A stretch of DNA of 19,329 bases. Source: a virus (Duplodnaviria > Heunggongvirae > Uroviricota > Caudoviricetes). Positions 3,310 through 15,185 of this stretch are shown here, one piece after another. The notes beneath the pieces are model-generated. The model had not been told where the DNA came from. It searched no databases and worked only from the letters and a program-made list of their open reading frames with translations. The DNA lies in IMG/VR virus record IMGVR_UViG_2802429248_000011, positions 1-19,329 of that record; one strand, written 5' to 3'. Made by a program: the position numbers and the translations under genes. Numbering within the stretch: the first letter of the stretch is position 1; each line of letters opens with the position of its first letter.

Positions 3310-3590
3310 AATATTGTGGTGCTTTTTGTGAGAGTCATCCACTTACGCACTTTGTTTTGCTATGCCAGCAGTTAGCTTCTGCTGTAAAACTATTCATGCA
3401 GCAAACCTGCACTTCACCACAATGGTTAGCATACTTTTCCTGATTAAGTTATTACCAAATATGCTGGCCATTGTTTCATGTATTGGACCGCCTTACTCTT
3501 TATTAAAGAGATCCAATATTCACCACTCTGTCTGTATCTCCACTCAGGCATCAGCCTTCTTCGTTATCGTATACAGACAAACTATGAATT

Positions 3591-3806
3591 TTAATCATTA
3601 ATGATGACATTTGCTGCTGCAGGACCTTTAGCACCACTCTCTACAGAGAAGGTAACCTTTTGACCTTCAAATAAGGTTCGATAATTATCATTCTGAATCG
3701 CAGAAAAATGCACAAACACATCTTTACTACCATCAACAGGAGAAATAAAGCCGAAACCTTTATCAGCGTTAAACCATTTTACTAAACCAGTCATTTTATT
3801 TGACAT
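3591..3806 (-). CDS. cspB: Cold-shock protein, CspA family (CspB-like)
   Basis: 71 aa [67 protein letters not shown]...; canonical cold-shock-domain RNP motifs; long upstream untranslated region as in csp genes. Confidence 0.9.
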
Positions 3807-4105
3807 TCTACATTCCTTAACTTGAGCCTTTCGGCATAAATGGTTTGTATAACAGAAACGACTTCGTACTTAATTGGAGAGACTCAAAGAAGGAATAAGT
3901 GAATAACACCTGAAATGAGAACTGCTTTAGTAAACTACTTCGTATATCGTCTGTTCTTCAAACCGACGCAATCATTAACGCATAGTTGAACATATGAAGC
4001 AATGTTTATTTTAGACATCCAGCCATCTTCAACCCCATCAAAAAACTATAGCTTTCTTCAGGAACGTGTGTATAGTGCGCCAAGTTATCAGTATTAAGGA
4101 ATTTT

Positions 4106-11803: not shown

Positions 11804-11994
11804 GGACGCACCTCCGCCGTAGTTACGTATTTAACCGGGCTACCTTTCATTGAGATGGTTTCACACATCTCTGCCGCTTTCAGTTCCGCCGTTTTTCTGG
11901 ATTTATAGCGACGGTGCCAGACAGATACATCCGTGCGAACTGATACATCGTTTCTGTATTCCGTAGTGGAGATGATGATTTCGTAACTAATCAT
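11800..11994 (-). CDS. Hypothetical protein (64 aa)
   Basis: GGGAGG Shine-Dalgarno 7 nt before ATG 11994, which overlaps the upstream stop (ATGA); MISYEIIISTTEYRNDVSVRTDVSVWHRRYKSRKTAELKAAEM... Confidence 0.55.
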   Translation of the reverse strand: MISYEIIISTTEYRNDVSVRTDVSVWHRRYKSRKTAELKAAEMCETISMKGSPVKYVTTAEVRP

Positions 11995-12653
11995 GGGCGT
12001 ACCTCCCATTGATTACGGCGAAAAGCAGTGTGATTCAGGCTGGTTTCAGCCTCATGGAATGCTCCAATGCAGCTCTCGTAGTACCGCATTGTGCGTAGAC
12101 TTAACCCAAGCTGAAGCATCATCAGGCCATCAAGGGTGATGTAATAACCACGCAGGGAGTCACCATAGATGTGGTAAGTACCCGGTATGAAGTTGCGGGT
12201 AAAAAATTCGCGCGAGCAGTTCAGATACTCGATTTTGTCGACGATGTTCTGGTGCATGCGCTTAAAGTGGCAGGCAACATGCAGGGAGAAAATAACAGCT
12301 TTGCCGTTGACGACTTCGATTTTGAGGAATGGGGAAGTTGGGACTGTAGCCATGATGGCAGCCTCCTTGATCGGTGAAAAACTTCCACCACCGGAGCTGC
12401 GAAACTCATGGGTGGTGAACTGAACAGGGTTCGCAGTACCGGCGATCAAGGAAACCGGCGAGCCTTTCGGCTCCCCTGCCCAGCCCACCATAATTCTGGC
12501 GTGCGTGAGCGCAGACGATAAAAAAGACGCTGGCGCGTCGTATATCGCCTTGATCAATTCCGGGCTGCGACCCCCGGCACCCGCTTTATAAGGTGCTGGA
12601 ACAGTGTAACGTCCCGAAATTACAGAATCAATATTTTGGCTTGAAACATTCAT
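11991..12653 (-). CDS. Hypothetical protein with Gly/Ser/Pro/Ala-rich N-terminal region and folded C-terminal domain; start codon uncertain (open frame extends to 12887; strong internal Shine-Dalgarno + ATG at 12353)
   Basis: 897-nt open frame. The first in-frame ATG (12653) lacks a Shine-Dalgarno; an internal ATG at 12353 has AAGGAGG 8 nt upstream. C-terminal domain ...YYITLDGLMMLQLGLSLRTMRYYESCIGAF... is not confidently assignable. Confidence 0.5.
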   Translation of the reverse strand: MNVSSQNIDSVISGRYTVPAPYKAGAGGRSPELIKAIYDAPASFLSSALTHARIMVGWAGEPKGSPVSLIAGTANPVQFTTHEFRSSGGGSFSPIKEAAIMATVPTSPFLKIEVVNGKAVIFSLHVACHFKRMHQNIVDKIEYLNCSREFFTRNFIPGTYHIYGDSLRGYYITLDGLMMLQLGLSLRTMRYYESCIGAFHEAETSLNHTAFRRNQWEVRP

Positions 12654-12677
12654 ATGCTTACTGGTATTTTTACTAAC

Positions 12678-12767
12678 GCAAATGTTCTTGGATGTTACTG
12701 GCTTACTTCTTTGTGAGGTTGCCTTTACTAACGTTGAGCGAGCCGGGTCACTACCCGGCTTTTTTTC
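12678..12767 (+). ncRNA. Candidate oop-like antisense small RNA (about 90 nt)
   Basis: Promoter-like TTGAAA (12641-12646), 18-bp spacer, TG-extended -10 TGgTATTTT (12662-12670), and a strong plus-strand terminator ending at 12767. Antisense to the Rha-2 stop and the region upstream of the next gene. Confidence 0.3.
12741..12767 (+). terminator. Intrinsic terminator oriented against the pR-type operon (antisense terminator)
   Basis: Plus strand AGCCGGGT-CACT-ACCCGGCT followed by T7; on the minus strand the hairpin is preceded by A7 and has no U-tract. Confidence 0.6.
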
Positions 12768-13473
12768 ACCGCTGCCAACCAATAACCTGAAATAACCCCA
12801 TTTTCGGGTGATACCAGCGAGTCCCTCGCGGTTCTGCTTCCGCCATAACCTGATGGAAAGCAGCCATAAACGGTTCCACGGCAACAATTGCGCGACGTGA
12901 CAACAATCCGTCCGGCGTCATGAACTCATGGGTGTCTGTAGGAATTTGATAAGCGTTCACCAGATTGCGGCATTTATCATCTGACAAACCGGTTTTCGCT
13001 TTCAGTTGGCGATATCCGGCATAGCCCTCACGAATGTTGCCCTTTTTGATTTGCTCAACTGTTTCGGCAACGTGGCTGACTTTTTCTTCCACCTGAGTGA
13101 TCCGTTTCTGCTGACGAACAGCTTCAAGAGCCATCGCGGCAACCATTTCGATTTCGCTCATTGGCTTACGGATCTGTTCTTCCAGTTCGCGCCAGCGATC
13201 TACTAGGCGGGCTGTGAATTCGGGACAAAGCTGTGCGACGACAATGATGCTGTCGCGCTTACCTTGTTCGCCTTCGAAGATGTAAGCACCTACATTTCGT
13301 TTTAATCCTAAGTTGTTGATTATTTCGAAATTCGCCATTGGCGCACTTCGAATAATCCCCTTATCCATGAGCCTTTCAATGCTGCGCTTAACATCTTTGT
13401 GTTGGCTGCCCACCAACTCTGCGATTTCAAGGCTGGTCATGGATGCTTTGCCGTTAAAAATTGCGGTGTTCAT
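12766..13473 (-). CDS. Rha-family phage regulatory protein (antirepressor-like)
   Basis: 235 aa. N-terminal ...MTSLEIAELVGSQHKDVKRSIERLMDKG... fits the Rha domain pattern; its ATG overlaps the cro-like stop (ATGA). Confidence 0.78.
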   Translation of the reverse strand: MNTAIFNGKASMTSLEIAELVGSQHKDVKRSIERLMDKGIIRSAPMANFEIINNLGLKRNVGAYIFEGEQGKRDSIIVVAQLCPEFTARLVDRWRELEEQIRKPMSEIEMVAAMALEAVRQQKRITQVEEKVSHVAETVEQIKKGNIREGYAGYRQLKAKTGLSDDKCRNLVNAYQIPTDTHEFMTPDGLLSRRAIVAVEPFMAAFHQVMAEAEPRGTRWYHPKMGLFQVIGWQR

Positions 13474-13733
13474 TGTTGGTCTCCTGTGGGCTTGTCATCC
13501 TCTGTGTGCGCTAAGCTTGGATGTGGAAAAAGCTCTGGTAGGTCTGGACGAAATTCATACGCTTGGATCTTTCCGTCGACAGCTGCAACCAATAACGGCA
13601 CAAATTCTGGTGAAATCTTGTTCTTGCAGTTCAACCAATCGCAGACTGTTGACTGGGCCTTTCCGCATCGCTTGGCTAAGGCTTGCTGACTTCCAAGAAT
13701 CTCAATAGCTTTCTCTATGGCTTTATGTTTCAT
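13470..13733 (-). CDS. cro: Cro-like repressor (Cro/YdaS-family HTH)
   Basis: 87 aa from ATG 13733 (GGAG Shine-Dalgarno): MKHKAIEKAIEILGSQQALAKRCGKAQSTVCDWLNCKNKISPEFVPLLVAAVDG.... Divergent from the CI gene. Longest ORF extends to 13784. Confidence 0.8.
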   Translation of the reverse strand: MKHKAIEKAIEILGSQQALAKRCGKAQSTVCDWLNCKNKISPEFVPLLVAAVDGKIQAYEFRPDLPELFPHPSLAHTEDDKPTGDQQ

Positions 13734-13755: not shown

Positions 13756-13784
13756 ATAATAACAACAGGAAAAGCGATATTCAA
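13756..13784 (-). promoter_or_regulatory. pR-type promoter for the cro-like operon
   Basis: On the minus strand, TTGAAT (-35), a 17-bp spacer and TATTAT (-10), about 20 nt upstream of the cro-like Shine-Dalgarno. Confidence 0.5.
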
Positions 13785-13803
13785 CGTTAAACCTAGAACA
13801 TTT

Positions 13804-13817
13804 ATCGGAAAGCCGAT
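13804..13817. promoter_or_regulatory. Palindromic operator candidate in oR (ATCGGAAAGCCGAT); a weaker related site at 13765-13778
   Basis: 14-bp dyad matching two sites beside the pL-type promoter (ATCGATAAACCGAT, ATCGGTAAACCTAT); located between divergent cI and cro start regions. Confidence 0.45.
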
Positions 13818-13852: not shown

Positions 13853-14545
13853 ATGACATTTTCAGAACGACTTGATTTAGCTATGCGCAACGCAAAATTT
13901 ACGCAAGGTAGGCTGGCCAAAGAAGTGGGTATGGCTCAGTCCAGTGTCAATCAACTACTTAACAAAGCCAACGGTTCCAGAAAAACAGTCGAAATAGCAA
14001 AAGTTTTGGGCGTTAACCCGGAATGGCTCGCATCGGGTGTTGGCCCAATGGAAATCGTGACCTCTGCAGACTCACACCAAATACGTAACATTTCTGAAGA
14101 TTGGGTTACTGATTCGTATGTCGTGGATGTTTTAGACATCAGATATAGTTGCGGACCTGGCAGTTATAACTCTGATTTTCCTGACATTGTCAGATCTATA
14201 GCGATAGAACCAGGATACGCATCAAGAGTTTTTGGCGGCAGACCAGCATCAGCAATCAAAGCAATAAACGCCCACGGCGACAGTATGAAAGGCACAATAG
14301 ACCCTGAAGACTTGGTATTTGTAGATGTATCAGTTCGCACATTTAATGGTGATGGTATATACGCCTTTACATACTCTGGAACATCGCACATCAAAAGACT
14401 TCAAAAAATCAAAGATACTCTAACGGTGATATCTGACAACCCAGCTTACAAGGATTGGGCTATCGAACCGGAAGACTTTGAACAACTTCACATTGACGGA
14501 AAAGTAATTGTCAGTTGGCCTATGACACTACACCGTTTTGCATAA
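13853..14545 (+). CDS. cI: CI-type prophage repressor (N-terminal HTH, C-terminal LexA-like S24 autopeptidase domain)
   Basis: 230 aa. N-terminal HTH (..QGRLAKEVGMAQSSVNQLL..) and C-terminal S24 motifs (..HGDSMKGTIDPEDLVFVD.. and ..IKRLQK..). GGAGG Shine-Dalgarno; divergent from cro. Confidence 0.9.
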   Translation: MTFSERLDLAMRNAKFTQGRLAKEVGMAQSSVNQLLNKANGSRKTVEIAKVLGVNPEWLASGVGPMEIVTSADSHQIRNISEDWVTDSYVVDVLDIRYSCGPGSYNSDFPDIVRSIAIEPGYASRVFGGRPASAIKAINAHGDSMKGTIDPEDLVFVDVSVRTFNGDGIYAFTYSGTSHIKRLQKIKDTLTVISDNPAYKDWAIEPEDFEQLHIDGKVIVSWPMTLHRFA

Positions 14546-14596: not shown

Positions 14597-14638
14597 ATCG
14601 ATAAACCGATTGACAGGCGAAATCGGTAAACCTATTAT
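14597..14638 (+). promoter_or_regulatory. pL-type early-left promoter with two operator dyads
   Basis: Consensus TTGACA (14610-14615), 17-bp spacer, TATTAT (14633-14638). Dyads ATCGATAAACCGAT (14597-14610) and ATCGGTAAACCTAT (14622-14635) overlap the -35 and the spacer/-10. Confidence 0.6.
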
Positions 14639-14687
14639 TATGGCATAGGTATCGAACTCACCAAAGCAATTATAGAGGATGAGAAAA

Positions 14688-15185
14688 ATGTCATCGTATA
14701 TGGGGTTACCAACAAATCAGCACGATGCTCTTGAGAATATTCAGCTCTTAGTCGGGGCTGGTGCACTACTGTATAGCAGCAATAACCCTGAGTTAATTGA
14801 ACTTGCCAGCTCCATCCTGGCTGTAACTCAAAAATATAGCCTCACAGCGTCGCGTTTATGCAAACAAAATTTAGCTATTAATTCCCAGAATCGGATTAGC
14901 ACTCAACGCGAAGCCTGCGGCTTAACAACCGCCGAACTCGCCAGGCTGCTCGATCTCGATGAAGAAATTATCATCCAGTGGGAGAGCGGAGAGTATGAAC
15001 CAACCATCAGCATGCTTATCCCACTGGCAAATATTCTTGGCTGCGATCCGATGTGGCTGTTAACTGGCGAGGTTACTCCTCCGGAGCAACCAAAAAGTGA
15101 GGAGCAGCAACACCATGACGCATCTCAACAAGTTTGCTCCTTATCTCGCGAAGCTCTTCTACGGAAGAACCAATACCAATGGTGA
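14688..15185 (+). CDS. HTH (XRE-family) protein, first gene of the early-left operon; N-terminal domain of unknown function
   Basis: 165 aa from ATG 14688 (AGAGGA Shine-Dalgarno). XRE-type HTH in residues ~95-150 (..CGLTTAELARLLDLDEEIIIQWESGEYEPTISMLIPLANILGCDPMWLLTG..). Occupies the position of N in lambda but is not N-like. Confidence 0.7.
   Translation: MSSYMGLPTNQHDALENIQLLVGAGALLYSSNNPELIELASSILAVTQKYSLTASRLCKQNLAINSQNRISTQREACGLTTAELARLLDLDEEIIIQWESGEYEPTISMLIPLANILGCDPMWLLTGEVTPPEQPKSEEQQHHDASQQVCSLSREALLRKNQYQW

What the first reader, a model, noticed from the sequence alone, without database searches (positions are those of the whole stretch)
12766..13733. Rha-family antirepressor-like gene translationally coupled to cro, in place of cII
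The Rha-2 ATG overlaps the cro-like stop codon (ATGA), so an antirepressor-like protein is made with Cro from the pR-type promoter. In lambda this position holds cII. It suggests a lysis-lysogeny circuit wired differently from lambda.
Basis: partly seen in the sequence, partly recalled or inferred. Interest (0 to 1): 0.5.

Follow-up and report, generated by a model that had tools for sequence, protein, structure and literature searches.

The report
Roi/Rha-type regulator gene after cro
The gene overlapping the cro stop codon is real, but it encodes a Roi/Rha-type DNA-binding protein in an already catalogued prophage layout, and it carries a conserved palindrome inside its own coding sequence that is probably its own binding site.

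Summary
A 235-aa Phage_pRha protein (12766-13473, minus strand) starts at an ATGA that overlaps the stop of an 87-aa YdaS/Cro-type gene. That gene sits behind a pR-like promoter with operator-like sites, divergent from a cI-like repressor.

No lambda CII, 186 CII, YdaT or N homologue is found in any of the 380 six-frame ORFs of 30 aa or more.

- **Overlap is ordinary.** Four other gene junctions in the window are also ATGA overlaps. Rha-2 has its own accessible AGGAG Shine-Dalgarno. In relatives it also works uncoupled, from a GTG start after an inserted gene.
- **'Antirepressor-like' is weak.** Rha-2 shares only the N-terminal winged-helix domain with HK022/Stx-phage Roi. It lacks their ANT/KilAC domain.
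- **The layout is known.** It matches the published 'Eru7' Stx-phage type, whose function is unknown.

New here:
- Rha-2 is always followed by an isrK/C4 RNA module.
- Its alleles vary almost only in the recognition helix and wing (residues 22-65).
- Inside that segment lies a dyad (13324-13352) next to an IHF-consensus site.
- The dyad sits at the same codon in homologues down to about 30% identity. It is kept by compensatory and even non-synonymous changes, and shows no G-U bias.

Most likely Rha-2 is an early DNA-binding regulator that binds its own gene.

The parts
13756..13784 (-). pR-like promoter (TTGAAT-17-TATTAT, TG-extended) driving cro and Rha-2
   Evidence: Consensus scan. It is flanked by operator-like sites at 13804-13817 (2 mismatches to the consensus ATCGGTAAACCGAT) and a weaker one at about 13783-13796 (repeat D4).
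13470..13733 (-). cro-like gene (87 aa, YdaS/Cro-type HTH)
   Evidence: Pfam YdaS_toxin E 9.5e-15. phrog_35 transcriptional repressor. Hits Rac YdaS at E 1.2e-6. The homologous gene is annotated 'transcriptional regulator' in E. coli MS8345.
13470..13473 (-). ATGA start/stop overlap between cro-like gene and Rha-2
   Evidence: Read directly from the sequence. The same -4 junction occurs in 48 of 80 related loci.
13481..13485 (-). Shine-Dalgarno AGGAG of Rha-2, inside the cro 3' end, 7 nt before the ATG
   Evidence: Sequence. Predicted largely unpaired. The last ~56 nt of cro plus this SD are shared among loci with different cro genes.
12766..13473 (-). Rha-2 CDS, 235 aa: N-terminal Rha/Roi winged helix (about 8-100), long helix (106-142), C-terminal domain (150-227)
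13279..13410 (-). Hypervariable segment of Rha-2 (codons 22-65: putative recognition helix plus wing); five allele types in otherwise nearly invariant proteins
   Evidence: 30 distinct proteins from 80 loci; allele type is not linked to cro type or to spacer type; no allele-specific 11-mers anywhere else within +-4 kb.
13324..13352 (.). Intragenic dyad TTCGAAgTgCGCCA-A-TGGCGaAtTTCGAA (gene nt 122-150, codons 41-50); candidate operator for Rha-2 itself
   Evidence: Best palindrome in the whole gene. Single copy in the window. Same aligned position in 41 of 52 distinct homologue contexts against 2.0 expected. Not explained by the protein sequence: 0 of 200 synonymous recodings reach the observed score. 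Covariation score 0.58 against 0.16 in shuffles, 0 of 500, and 0.06-0.17 for slid controls. No G-U excess.
13309..13321 (-). IHF-consensus match AATCAACAACTTA (WATCAANNNNTTR), 17 nt downstream of the dyad centre
   Evidence: A perfect consensus sits at the same offset in 14 of 52 contexts, including HK022 roi. About 0.8 would be expected after synonymous recoding.
12740..12768 (+). Hairpin plus T-run just after the Rha-2 stop; it is a terminator only for plus-strand (antisense) transcription
   Evidence: Conserved across spacer variants; the variants differ only at unpaired loop positions.
12603..12631 (-). isrK promoter (TTGATT-17-TACACT), invariant in all spacer variants
   Evidence: Sequence; alignment A2.
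12408..12596 (-). isrK-like RNA (12520-12596) and C4 antisense RNA (12408-12495), always linked to Rha-2
   Evidence: Rfam isrK 57.6 bits and C4 85 bits, both above gathering score. The spacer and the start of isrK directly follow Rha-2 in all 80 related loci; full-length isrK and C4 matches in most of them.
11991..12353 (-). Rha-1 (120 aa, Rha domain only), in the position of Gifsy-1 AnrP / P1 ant; its SD is complementary to a C4 loop
   Evidence: phrog_995, and TIGR02681 phage_pRha below its cut-off. C4 nt 44-53 UCCUUGAUCG is complementary to CGAUCAAGGA, which overlaps the SD; 0 of 1000 shuffles reach this.

Best explanation
Rha-2 is an early DNA-binding regulator of the Roi/Rha class. It is not a cII homologue, and nothing shows it to be an antirepressor.

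Expression (anatomy shown, expression itself inferred). It is transcribed with cro from the CI-controlled pR-type promoter. It is translated from its own strong Shine-Dalgarno, with possible re-initiation at the ATGA.

Protein (modelled). An N-terminal winged helix is joined by a long, probably dimerising helix to a second small winged-helix-like domain.

Target (inferred). Its most likely target is the 29-bp dyad inside its own coding sequence (13324-13352), next to an IHF-consensus site. The dyad lies in the DNA that encodes the wing, directly downstream of the DNA that encodes the recognition helix. Protein specificity and site therefore travel together as one roughly 150-bp hypervariable cassette.

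Effect (inferred). Binding there, probably helped by IHF, would feed back on the pR transcript. It could limit Rha-2's own synthesis, act as a roadblock, or both. The genes affected would be those downstream: the isrK/C4 gate, Rha-1, the O-, DnaC- and DnaB-like replication genes, and Q.

This fits the published phenotype of the closest studied relative, HK022 Roi. [quoted passage not shown]
For: - **Family.** Phage_pRha is above its cut-off. Identity to HK022 Roi is 52% over 143 aa, E 6e-38, and 60-72% over residues 1-98 to Stx-phage Roi.
- **Variation.** It is confined to residues about 22-65, the helix at 24-37 plus the wing strands.
- **Dyad position.** All 12 reference genes have a palindrome centred on the same aligned codon. 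In 9 of them it is the best palindrome in the whole gene. In 52 distinct contexts it is the top palindrome of a 330-nt window in 41, against 2.0 expected.
- **Nucleotide-level selection.** Mean palindrome score is 6.88 observed against 2.84 after synonymous recoding. A silent Pro third base co-varies with Glu, Gly or Val on the other arm. There are 113 cells with changes on both sides, and 0 of 500 shuffles reach the covariation score.
- **DNA rather than RNA.** Mismatches are G-T 32, A-C 41, other 78. Symmetry is bipartite, at positions 1-5 and 9-11 from the centre.
- **Only co-varying partner.** Nothing else within +-4 kb co-varies with the dyad type, and the same cro/cI occurs with two different dyad types. 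The only co-varying protein segment is Rha-2's own helix and wing.
- **IHF.** A perfect IHF consensus sits at +17 in the enterobacterial members, including HK022 roi, far above the level seen after synonymous recoding.
[quoted passage not shown] Roi is 'implicated in phage lytic growth' (PMC3430580).
- **From memory, not verifiable here.** The 1996 abstract reports that Roi binds a site within its own gene, closely linked to an IHF site.
Against: - No binding data exist for this protein. Self-recognition of the dyad is inferred from position, covariation and one remembered precedent.
- Helix and dyad are only about 40-60 nt apart, so their co-variation cannot be separated from simple linkage.
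- Five of the 52 contexts show essentially no palindrome near the centre under the spacer geometries tested (score 1-2, not above synonymous recoding). In 11 the top palindrome of the 330-nt window lies elsewhere.
- The IHF consensus codes for a conserved I-N-N-L-G motif and is absent from distant homologues.
- Rha-2's C-terminal domain differs from Roi's, so its output may differ.
- The effect on transcription (autorepression or roadblock) is untested.
- The 33 dyads used for the formal pair count were chosen as the best palindromes near the centre, which inflates pairing of the inner positions. In most of them the centre was fixed by the protein alignment.
Confidence: 0.55

Rival explanations
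1. Rha-2 is an antirepressor. Made with Cro once pR fires, it binds and inactivates CI, either this phage's or a co-resident prophage's. That would lock in lytic development.
For: - The best PHROG match is phrog_63, 'anti-repressor Ant', and several public records label homologues as antirepressor.
- The neighbouring module (isrK/C4 followed by a Rha-domain gene) is the kind that controls antirepressors in P1 and controls AnrP in Gifsy-1. AnrP expression induces that prophage (PMC4825925).
- Antirepressors made from an early lytic promoter have a precedent in TP901-1 Mor (abstract of PMC11149083).
Against: - Rha-2 has no ANT/KilAC, AntA, Bro-N or P22 Ant domain. The Roi proteins that carry the label have ANT/KilAC.
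- The fold looks like DNA-binding winged helices.
- The variable surface does not track the cro/cI type.
- The gene under C4 control, in the antirepressor position, is Rha-1 and not Rha-2.
- No member of this subfamily has been shown to bind a repressor.
Confidence: 0.13
2. Rha-2 is a functional analogue of cII. It would be an early, dosage-sensitive regulator that slows lytic development or promotes establishment of repression, without being a homologue of CII.
For: - It occupies the same slot as cII/YdaT, directly after a YdaS-type cro.
- No CII, YdaT or N homologue is present in the window.
- Roi relatives are reported to inhibit lytic growth under some host conditions.
- The link to a host factor (IHF) recalls the host-factor sensitivity of CII.
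Against: - No convincing cI-directed (plus-strand) promoter was seen next to the dyad when the flanking sequence was read by eye. The only plus-strand promoter-like site in the scanned region (12641-12670) runs into a terminator at 12740-12768.
- The gene is separated from cro by inserted DNA in many relatives.
- Roi-type genes sit in the nin region of other phages, far from the switch.
- There is no evidence that Rha-2 activates any promoter.
Confidence: 0.12
3. The intragenic dyad is not Rha-2's operator. It could instead be an RNA hairpin, a recombination hotspot that generates the hypervariable cassette, or the site of another protein. Rha-2 would then act elsewhere, for example on the isrK promoter or at the replication origin, as the 'Eru' (EHEC phage replication unit) idea suggests.
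For: - Rha-2 is linked to the isrK promoter and RNA in all 80 related loci, whatever lies upstream.
- The authors who defined Eru types suspect that Rha proteins take part in replication (PMC8951638).
- A palindrome at the centre of a hypervariable segment could promote exchange.
- An 11-12 bp stem could also form in the mRNA.
Against: - There is no G-U enrichment, and the symmetry is bipartite, which points to DNA rather than RNA.
- The dyad lies in the middle of the variable segment, not at its borders.
- The isrK promoter and spacer do not co-vary with the allele type.
- A separate O-like initiator, a DnaC-like loader and a DnaB-like helicase are encoded downstream.
- Homologues with the same dyad sit in nin regions without isrK.
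Confidence: 0.2

Closest known systems
HK022 Roi and the Roi proteins of Stx phages (e.g. VT2-Sakai roi)
   Same: - Homologous N-terminal Rha/winged-helix domain: 52% identity over 143 aa to HK022 Roi; 60-72% over residues 1-98 to Stx-phage Roi.
- A palindrome centred on the same codon, followed 17 nt later by a perfect IHF consensus.
- Both lie in the rightward early operon.
   Different: - Roi has a C-terminal ANT/KilAC domain. Rha-2 has an unrelated C-terminal domain with no Pfam match.
- Roi sits in the nin region between the replication genes and Q. Rha-2 sits directly after cro.
- Rha-2 is linked to isrK/C4; Roi is not.
Eru7-type early region of Shiga-toxin phages (Llarena et al. 2022, PMC8951638)
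   Same: - Same gene order next to cI: a Rha protein, a 'Rha/Ash' protein, then HTH_36, DnaC-like and DnaB-like replication genes.
- The best DNA matches are Stx phages from the sequencing series (LC5678xx) that also supplies the Eru7 reference LC567818.
   Different: - That paper catalogues the genes, leaves their function open, and suggests a role in replication.
- The word 'cro' occurs nowhere in its text, and neither the passages read nor my searches turned up the isrK/C4 RNAs, the dyad or the hypervariable segment.
- This window carries no stx gene. Membership of Eru7 was inferred from gene order and DNA matches, not typed formally.
Lambda cII, and Rac / CP-933P YdaT after YdaS
   Same: Position only: the first gene after a Cro-type gene in the pR operon.
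   Different: - No sequence similarity (E > 1) and a different domain family.
- In lambda, cII is separated from cro by nutR/tR1. Here the genes overlap.
- No evidence for activation of a cI-directed promoter.
P1/P7 immI (c4-icd-ant) and the Gifsy-1 isrK-orf45-anrP locus
   Same: The module immediately downstream of Rha-2 has an isrK-like RNA and a C4 RNA. The C4 loop pairs with the Shine-Dalgarno of the next gene, Rha-1. This is the same logic as c4 blocking icd/ant translation and IsrK controlling anrP.
   Different: - Rha-2 lies upstream of this gate, not under it.
- In Gifsy-1 the upstream gene is antQ.
- Here the module sits between cro/Rha-2 and the replication genes.

Membership tests
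Phage_pRha (PF09669) regulatory proteins | Match to the Rha domain profile above the curated cut-off | tested here: met
   34.3 bits against a cut-off of 29.9, residues 12-99, full profile 1-91. The NCBIfam subfamily model TIGR02681 gave no hit for Rha-2.
Roi (HK022 type) | Homologous N-terminal DNA-binding domain | tested here: met
   BLASTP to HK022 Roi: 52% identity over 143 aa, E 6e-38.
Roi (HK022 type) | C-terminal ANT/KilAC domain | tested here: not met
   HK022 and VT2-Sakai Roi match PF03374 at E about 1e-33. Rha-2 has no such hit at E <= 0.01, and the C-terminal halves do not align.
Roi (HK022 type) | Binding site within its own gene next to an IHF site (experimental feature, recalled from the 1996 abstract) | tested here: inconclusive
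   A dyad and an IHF consensus are present at equivalent positions in both genes. Binding cannot be tested with these tools, and the original paper is not held.
Roi (HK022 type) | Location in the nin region between replication genes and Q | tested here: not met
   Rha-2 lies directly after cro. Roi genes lie next to ninF/ninG.
Phage antirepressors (P22 Ant, P1 Ant/KilA, AntA/B, Bro-N types) | Presence of an antirepressor-associated domain (ANT/KilAC, AntA, Bro-N, P22_AR_N/C) | tested here: not met
   The Pfam scan returns only Phage_pRha and a sub-threshold HTH_24.
Phage antirepressors (P22 Ant, P1 Ant/KilA, AntA/B, Bro-N types) | Binds and inactivates the immunity repressor | not testable with these tools
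   This needs interaction or derepression assays. Indirectly, the variable surface does not track the cro/cI type.
CII-type establishment activators (lambda CII PF05269; 186 CII/CP76 PF06892; YdaT PF06254) | Sequence membership of one of these families, for Rha-2 or any other ORF in the window | tested here: not met
   phmmer of lambda CII, 186 CII and YdaT against 380 six-frame ORFs: best E 0.1 to above 1. No Pfam or NCBIfam hits. The PHROG label 'CII-like regulator' on ORF 14679-15185 is not backed by these direct comparisons.
Translationally coupled gene pair | Start codon of the downstream gene overlaps or abuts the stop of the upstream gene | tested here: met
   ATGA at 13470-13473.
Translationally coupled gene pair | Downstream translation depends on upstream translation (sequestered or absent SD) | tested here: not met
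   By prediction only. AGGAG lies 7 nt upstream and is mostly unpaired, in a weakly structured 120-nt context (MFE -12.6 kcal/mol). Uncoupled versions exist in 32 of 80 relatives. Real dependence needs a cro nonsense or frameshift test.

The most novel reading that the evidence does not exclude
Rha/Roi-type phage proteins (PF09669, N-terminal subfamily) may generally carry their own operator inside the DNA that encodes their DNA-binding wing.

Recognition helix, wing and dyad would then form a single exchangeable cassette of about 150 bp that sets specificity. The five alleles seen among near-identical E. coli prophage genes would be 'specificity types', comparable to immunity types. They would keep co-resident prophages from cross-regulating each other's early operons.

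In this prophage the Rha-2/IHF complex on the dyad would act as a feedback brake inside the pR transcript, ahead of the isrK/C4 gate and the replication genes.
Probability: 0.4. Interest if true: 0.6.

Novelty: new member of a known kind. Interest (0 to 1): 0.42.

Why it matters
As stated, the finding is mostly ordinary: a common, already catalogued early-region layout of E. coli and Stx prophages, with an unremarkable 4-nt gene overlap.

It matters for two reasons:
- **It corrects a label.** The gene should not be read as an antirepressor or as a cII replacement on present evidence.
- **It gives a testable mechanism.** The Rha/Roi family is very widespread in temperate phages (1,655 clusters at 50% identity) and has no established mechanism. 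A conserved, co-varying intragenic dyad next to an IHF site suggests self-binding, with allele-specific recognition and IHF dependence.

Eru7-type Stx2 phages are reported to be common in severe EHEC disease (PMC8951638). A brake on their early operon would therefore bear on toxin-phage induction.

Tried and rejected
- **Search for a cII/N equivalent.** Lambda CII, 186 CII, YdaT, lambda N and 186 Apl were compared with all six-frame ORFs. Nothing was found. The PHROG 'CII-like' label on ORF 14679-15185 is not supported; that protein is a DicA-like HTH protein at the N position.
- **Solved-structure search by sequence.** No relative was found.
- **Defence-system profiles.** Only a marginal hit, E 3.7e-4; rejected.
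- **Obligatory translational coupling through a sequestered SD.** Not supported.
- **Rha-2 specificity tied to cro/cI type or to the Rha-2/isrK spacer.** No association found.
- **C-terminal domain tied to isrK/C4.** Eight genomic loci that share only the C-terminal domain have no isrK or C4 nearby.
- **RNA.duplexfold on C4 against its targets.** The output was uninterpretable. It was replaced by an exact-complementarity count.
- **Extra copies of the dyad or its half-site in the window.** None above chance.
- **The original HK022 Roi paper (PMC178163).** Not held. A search for Roi + HK022 + IHF found nothing.
- **A cI-directed promoter next to the dyad.** None convincing by eye.
Full report
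**1. What is at the coordinates**

The genes of the finding lie on the minus strand. Window 13470-13473 reads ATGA on that strand. ATG 13473-13471 opens a 235-aa ORF (12766-13473), and TGA 13472-13470 closes an 87-aa ORF (13470-13733).

The 235-aa protein, 'Rha-2', matches Pfam Phage_pRha above its cut-off (34.3 against 29.9 bits, residues 12-99). An identical protein exists in E. coli records.

The 87-aa protein matches YdaS_toxin, the Cro-position protein of prophage Rac, at E 9.5e-15. It also hits Rac YdaS directly at E 1.2e-6.

Upstream lies a sigma-70-like promoter on the minus strand (13784..13756, TTGAAT-17-TATTAT with TG). Divergent from it is an HTH + S24 repressor gene, 13853-14545.

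Sites resembling ATCGGTAAACCGAT occur at 13804-13817. Two more lie across a strong pL-like promoter (14597-14610 and 14622-14635; promoter 14610-14638). The window has 14 matches against 1.5 expected.

**2. How special is the overlap**

- Four other junctions in the same window are also ATGA overlaps, and one is TTGA. This is simply how the operons of this phage are built.
- Rha-2 has its own AGGAG 7 nt before the ATG. In a 120-nt fold that SD and the AUG are mostly unpaired (P unpaired 0.65 and 0.79; MFE only -12.6 kcal/mol). Nothing therefore suggests that its translation depends on cro.
- Among 80 viral contigs carrying Rha-2 at 86-98% identity, 48 have the same -4 overlap, ATGA or GTGA. 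The upstream proteins fall into five or six sequence types. Three of the four types tested are YdaS/P22_Cro-type; the commonest, a 75-aa protein, has no Pfam match.
- The other 32 loci have Rha-2 starting at GTG behind AAGGAG, 37-296 nt after other DNA. Some of these carry the same cI and cro as the window with about 440 bp inserted between cro and Rha-2.

The junction is thus recurrent but not obligatory.

**3. No cII**

Lambda CII, 186 CII, Rac YdaT, lambda N and 186 Apl were compared with all 380 six-frame ORFs of 30 aa or more. The best hits were E 0.1 (lambda CII) and E 0.015 (186 Apl), both to a truncated ORF at 1-471. Neither is significant.

Pfam and NCBIfam scans of the plausible genes found no Phage_CII, CP76 or YdaT domain.

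ORF 14679-15185 sits behind the pL-like promoter and matches a PHROG labelled 'CII-like regulator'. It is a DicA-like HTH_3 protein and resembles neither CII protein.

The window runs from lysis genes to the integrase, so the whole early region was covered.

**4. What Rha-2 is**

By tblastn, residues 1-98 are 60-72% identical to the N-terminus of 'Roi' of Stx phages, and less so to many other phage proteins. Against HK022 Roi the match is 52% over 143 aa, E 6e-38, and it stops there.

HK022 and VT2-Sakai Roi carry a C-terminal ANT/KilAC domain (E about 1e-33). That domain is the origin of the 'antirepressor' label. Rha-2 does not have it, nor any other antirepressor domain.

Its C-terminal part (residues 100-234) is a separate shuffled module, found behind other N-termini in other genomes.

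An AlphaFold model built on 50 homologues is confident (pLDDT 92.8). It shows three parts:
- a winged helix at residues 8-100;
- one long helix at 106-142;
- a small alpha/beta domain at 150-227.

On this evidence Rha-2 is a DNA-binding protein. The antirepressor reading has only annotation labels behind it.

**5. The layout is already catalogued**

The closest DNA matches are phiP27, ASU11 and a series of Stx phages, plus many E. coli chromosomes (1,273 of 5,426 genomes have some match).

Llarena et al. 2022 (PMC8951638) define the 'Eru6, Eru7 and Eru9' Stx phages by Phage_pRha and 'Rha/Ash' proteins next to cI. They state that the function of these proteins is unknown. The Eru7 reference phage (LC567818) belongs to the same sequencing series as the best hits here.

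**6.

Rfam finds an isrK-like RNA (12596..12520) and a C4 antisense RNA (12495..12408), both above gathering score. They lie between Rha-2 and the next gene, Rha-1 (11991-12353).

In all 80 related loci Rha-2 is followed directly by the same spacer and the start of isrK. Full-length isrK and C4 matches follow in most of them, whatever lies upstream. The isrK promoter TTGATT-17-TACACT is invariant across spacer variants.

C4 nt 44-53 (UCCUUGAUCG) is perfectly complementary to CGAUCAAGGA, which overlaps the Rha-1 Shine-Dalgarno; 0 of 1000 shuffles reach this. The same C4 segments also match IsrK.

This is the logic of P1 c4-icd-ant and of Gifsy-1 isrK-orf45-anrP, where AnrP expression induces the prophage (PMC4825925). 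The gene in the antirepressor position, under RNA control, is therefore Rha-1. Rha-2 lies upstream of the gate.

**7. A hypervariable segment and a dyad inside the gene**

The 80 loci encode 30 distinct Rha-2 proteins. These are nearly invariant except in residues about 22-65, which fall into five types. In the model these residues are the helix that precedes the wing, plus the wing strands.

The type is not linked to the cro type or to the spacer type. No type-specific 11-mer occurs anywhere else within +-4 kb.

Inside this DNA every type has a palindrome centred on the same base, gene nt 136, with a different sequence in each type. In the window it is TTCGAAgTgCGCCA-A-TGGCGaAtTTCGAA, 13324-13352. 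It is the best palindrome in the gene and occurs once in the window.

The same holds in distant relatives:
- VT2-Sakai roi, a Klebsiella phage, APSE-2 P42 and a Pseudomonas phage have their best whole-gene palindrome at the aligned codon.
- HK022, mEpX1 and HK75 have shorter ones there.

**8. Statistics on the dyad**

- **Position.** Two further scans of viral contigs gave 52 distinct contexts, with identity to Rha-2 falling to about 30 of 110 N-terminal residues. In 41 of them the top palindrome of a 330-nt window lies within 6 nt of the aligned centre, against 2.0 expected.
- **Not a by-product of the protein.** With codons redrawn synonymously, the mean palindrome score falls from 6.88 to 2.84. 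In 45 of 52 contexts at most 10% of recodings reach the observed score. For the window the figure is 0 of 200.
- **Compensatory changes cross the coding constraint.** CCT..GAG, CCC..GGG and CCA..GTG pair a silent Pro third base with Glu, Gly or Val on the other arm.
- **Formal pair count on 33 distinct 29-nt dyads.** 79.7% of cells are complementary against 55.7% in shuffles (0 of 500). The covariation score is 0.58 against 0.16 (0 of 500), and 0.06-0.17 when the partner is slid. 13 of 14 pairs change on both sides.
- **Caveat.** The 33 were the better palindromes near the centre, which favours the inner pairs. In most of them the centre was fixed by the protein alignment, and the outer pairs co-vary with four pair types each.
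- **DNA or RNA.** Mismatches show no G-U preference (G-T 32, A-C 41, other 78). Symmetry is bipartite: positions 1-5 and 9-11 from the centre are strong, 6-8 weak. This points to a DNA dyad read by a dimer rather than to an RNA stem.

**9. IHF**

Seventeen nt beyond the dyad centre the window has AATCAACAACTTA (13309-13321), a perfect WATCAANNNNTTR match. The same offset holds a perfect match in 14 of 52 contexts. These include four of the five E. coli allele types, HK022, mEpX1, HK75 and VT2-Sakai; the fifth E. coli type has one mismatch. About 0.8 would be expected after synonymous recoding. More distant homologues lack it.

[quoted passage not shown] From memory of that paper's abstract, which I could not retrieve, Roi binds a site within its own gene close to an IHF site. 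If that recollection is right, the dyad and IHF consensus found here in HK022 roi (nt 131-141 and 153-165) are that site. Rha-2 would then have the same arrangement.

**10. Best explanation**

- **Shown:** the gene structure, the family, the modelled fold, the linkage to isrK/C4, the hypervariable segment, and the selected dyad with its IHF consensus.
- **Inferred:** Rha-2 dimers bind the dyad. The argument is that the site differs between alleles, and the only thing that co-varies with it within +-4 kb is Rha-2's own helix and wing. The same cro/cI is found with two dyad types, which argues against CI or Cro as the binder.
- **Further inferred:** binding inside the pR transcript feeds back on Rha-2 itself and on read-through towards isrK/C4, Rha-1 and the replication genes, with IHF assisting.

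I put this at about 0.55. The rivals are an antirepressor (0.13), a functional cII analogue (0.12), and a dyad that has another role while Rha-2 acts elsewhere (0.2).

**11. Verdict**

The position and the absence of cII are right. 'Antirepressor-like', 'translationally coupled' and the implied uniqueness are not supported.

The gene is a new member of the known Roi/Rha kind, in a known (Eru7-type) layout. The added value is the intragenic, co-varying dyad, which offers a concrete mechanism for a very common phage protein family of unknown function.

Noticed in passing
window 12408-12596 (-) and 12335-12407 (-): An isrK-like RNA and a C4 antisense RNA sit between Rha-2 and Rha-1. A C4 loop (UCCUUGAUCG) is perfectly complementary to the Rha-1 Shine-Dalgarno region, and the same C4 segments match IsrK. 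A P1 immI-like / Gifsy-1 isrK-like gate is thus embedded in the pR operon, upstream of the replication genes.
   Followed up: partly
window 12333-12608 (-), within ORF 11991-12656: The Pfam 'Phage_ASH' domain (E 2.6e-18) maps exactly onto the isrK/C4 RNA genes and the Rha-1 leader. The 'Ash domain' of 'Rha/Ash' proteins in annotations, and in the Eru paper, looks like a translation of an RNA locus rather than a real protein domain.
   Followed up: partly
window 12641-12770 (+): A plus-strand promoter-like site (TTGAAA-18-TATTTT, -35 invariant in relatives) is followed by a canonical terminator (12740-12761 plus T7) that ends at the Rha-2 stop codon. The roughly 95-nt transcript it predicts would fold well (z -3.7). 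It would be antisense to the Rha-2/isrK spacer, reminiscent of lambda OOP.
   Followed up: partly
window 13352-13379 (-): A promoter-like site inside Rha-2 (TTGAAA-16-GATTAT) has its -10 abutting the left edge of the dyad, so the dyad would cover the start site. It may be a by-product of conserved codons.
   Followed up: no
window 14597-14638 (+) and 14679-15185 (+): A strong pL-like promoter (11 of 12 consensus matches) is overlapped by two operator-like sites. It is followed at the 'N position' by a 168-aa DicA-like HTH protein. No N homologue is present. The PHROG 'CII-like regulator' label on this protein is not supported by direct comparison.
   Followed up: partly
window 3526-3967 (-): Full-length Rfam match to the cspA thermoregulator (157.9 bits). 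This implies a cold-shock-protein gene with its 5' UTR inside the prophage, between the Q-like gene and the lysis genes.
   Followed up: no
L013 4869-5420 and L048 4874-5925: Some relatives carry two tandem copies of the isrK-C4 unit after Rha-2.
   Followed up: no
L012 3517-3960: A relative with the same cI and cro has about 440 bp inserted between cro and Rha-2. The insert holds a 97-aa ORF on the opposite strand, or a 117-aa ORF on the same strand. Rha-2 then starts at GTG with its own SD.
   Followed up: partly
Rha-2 residues 100-234 (window 12769-13176): The C-terminal module is 72% identical to part of an 'ORF6N domain-containing protein' in a phage of Elizabethkingia (Bacteroidota). That is unexpectedly high across phyla. 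It also occurs behind other N-termini in Atlantibacter, Trabulsiella, Budvicia and Citrobacter.
   Followed up: no
cro 3' end, window 13470-13525: The last ~56 nt of cro (coding ...HPSLAHTEDDKPTGDQQ) are shared among otherwise unrelated upstream genes. The recombination boundary of the Rha-2 cassette therefore lies inside the upstream gene's tail.
   Followed up: partly
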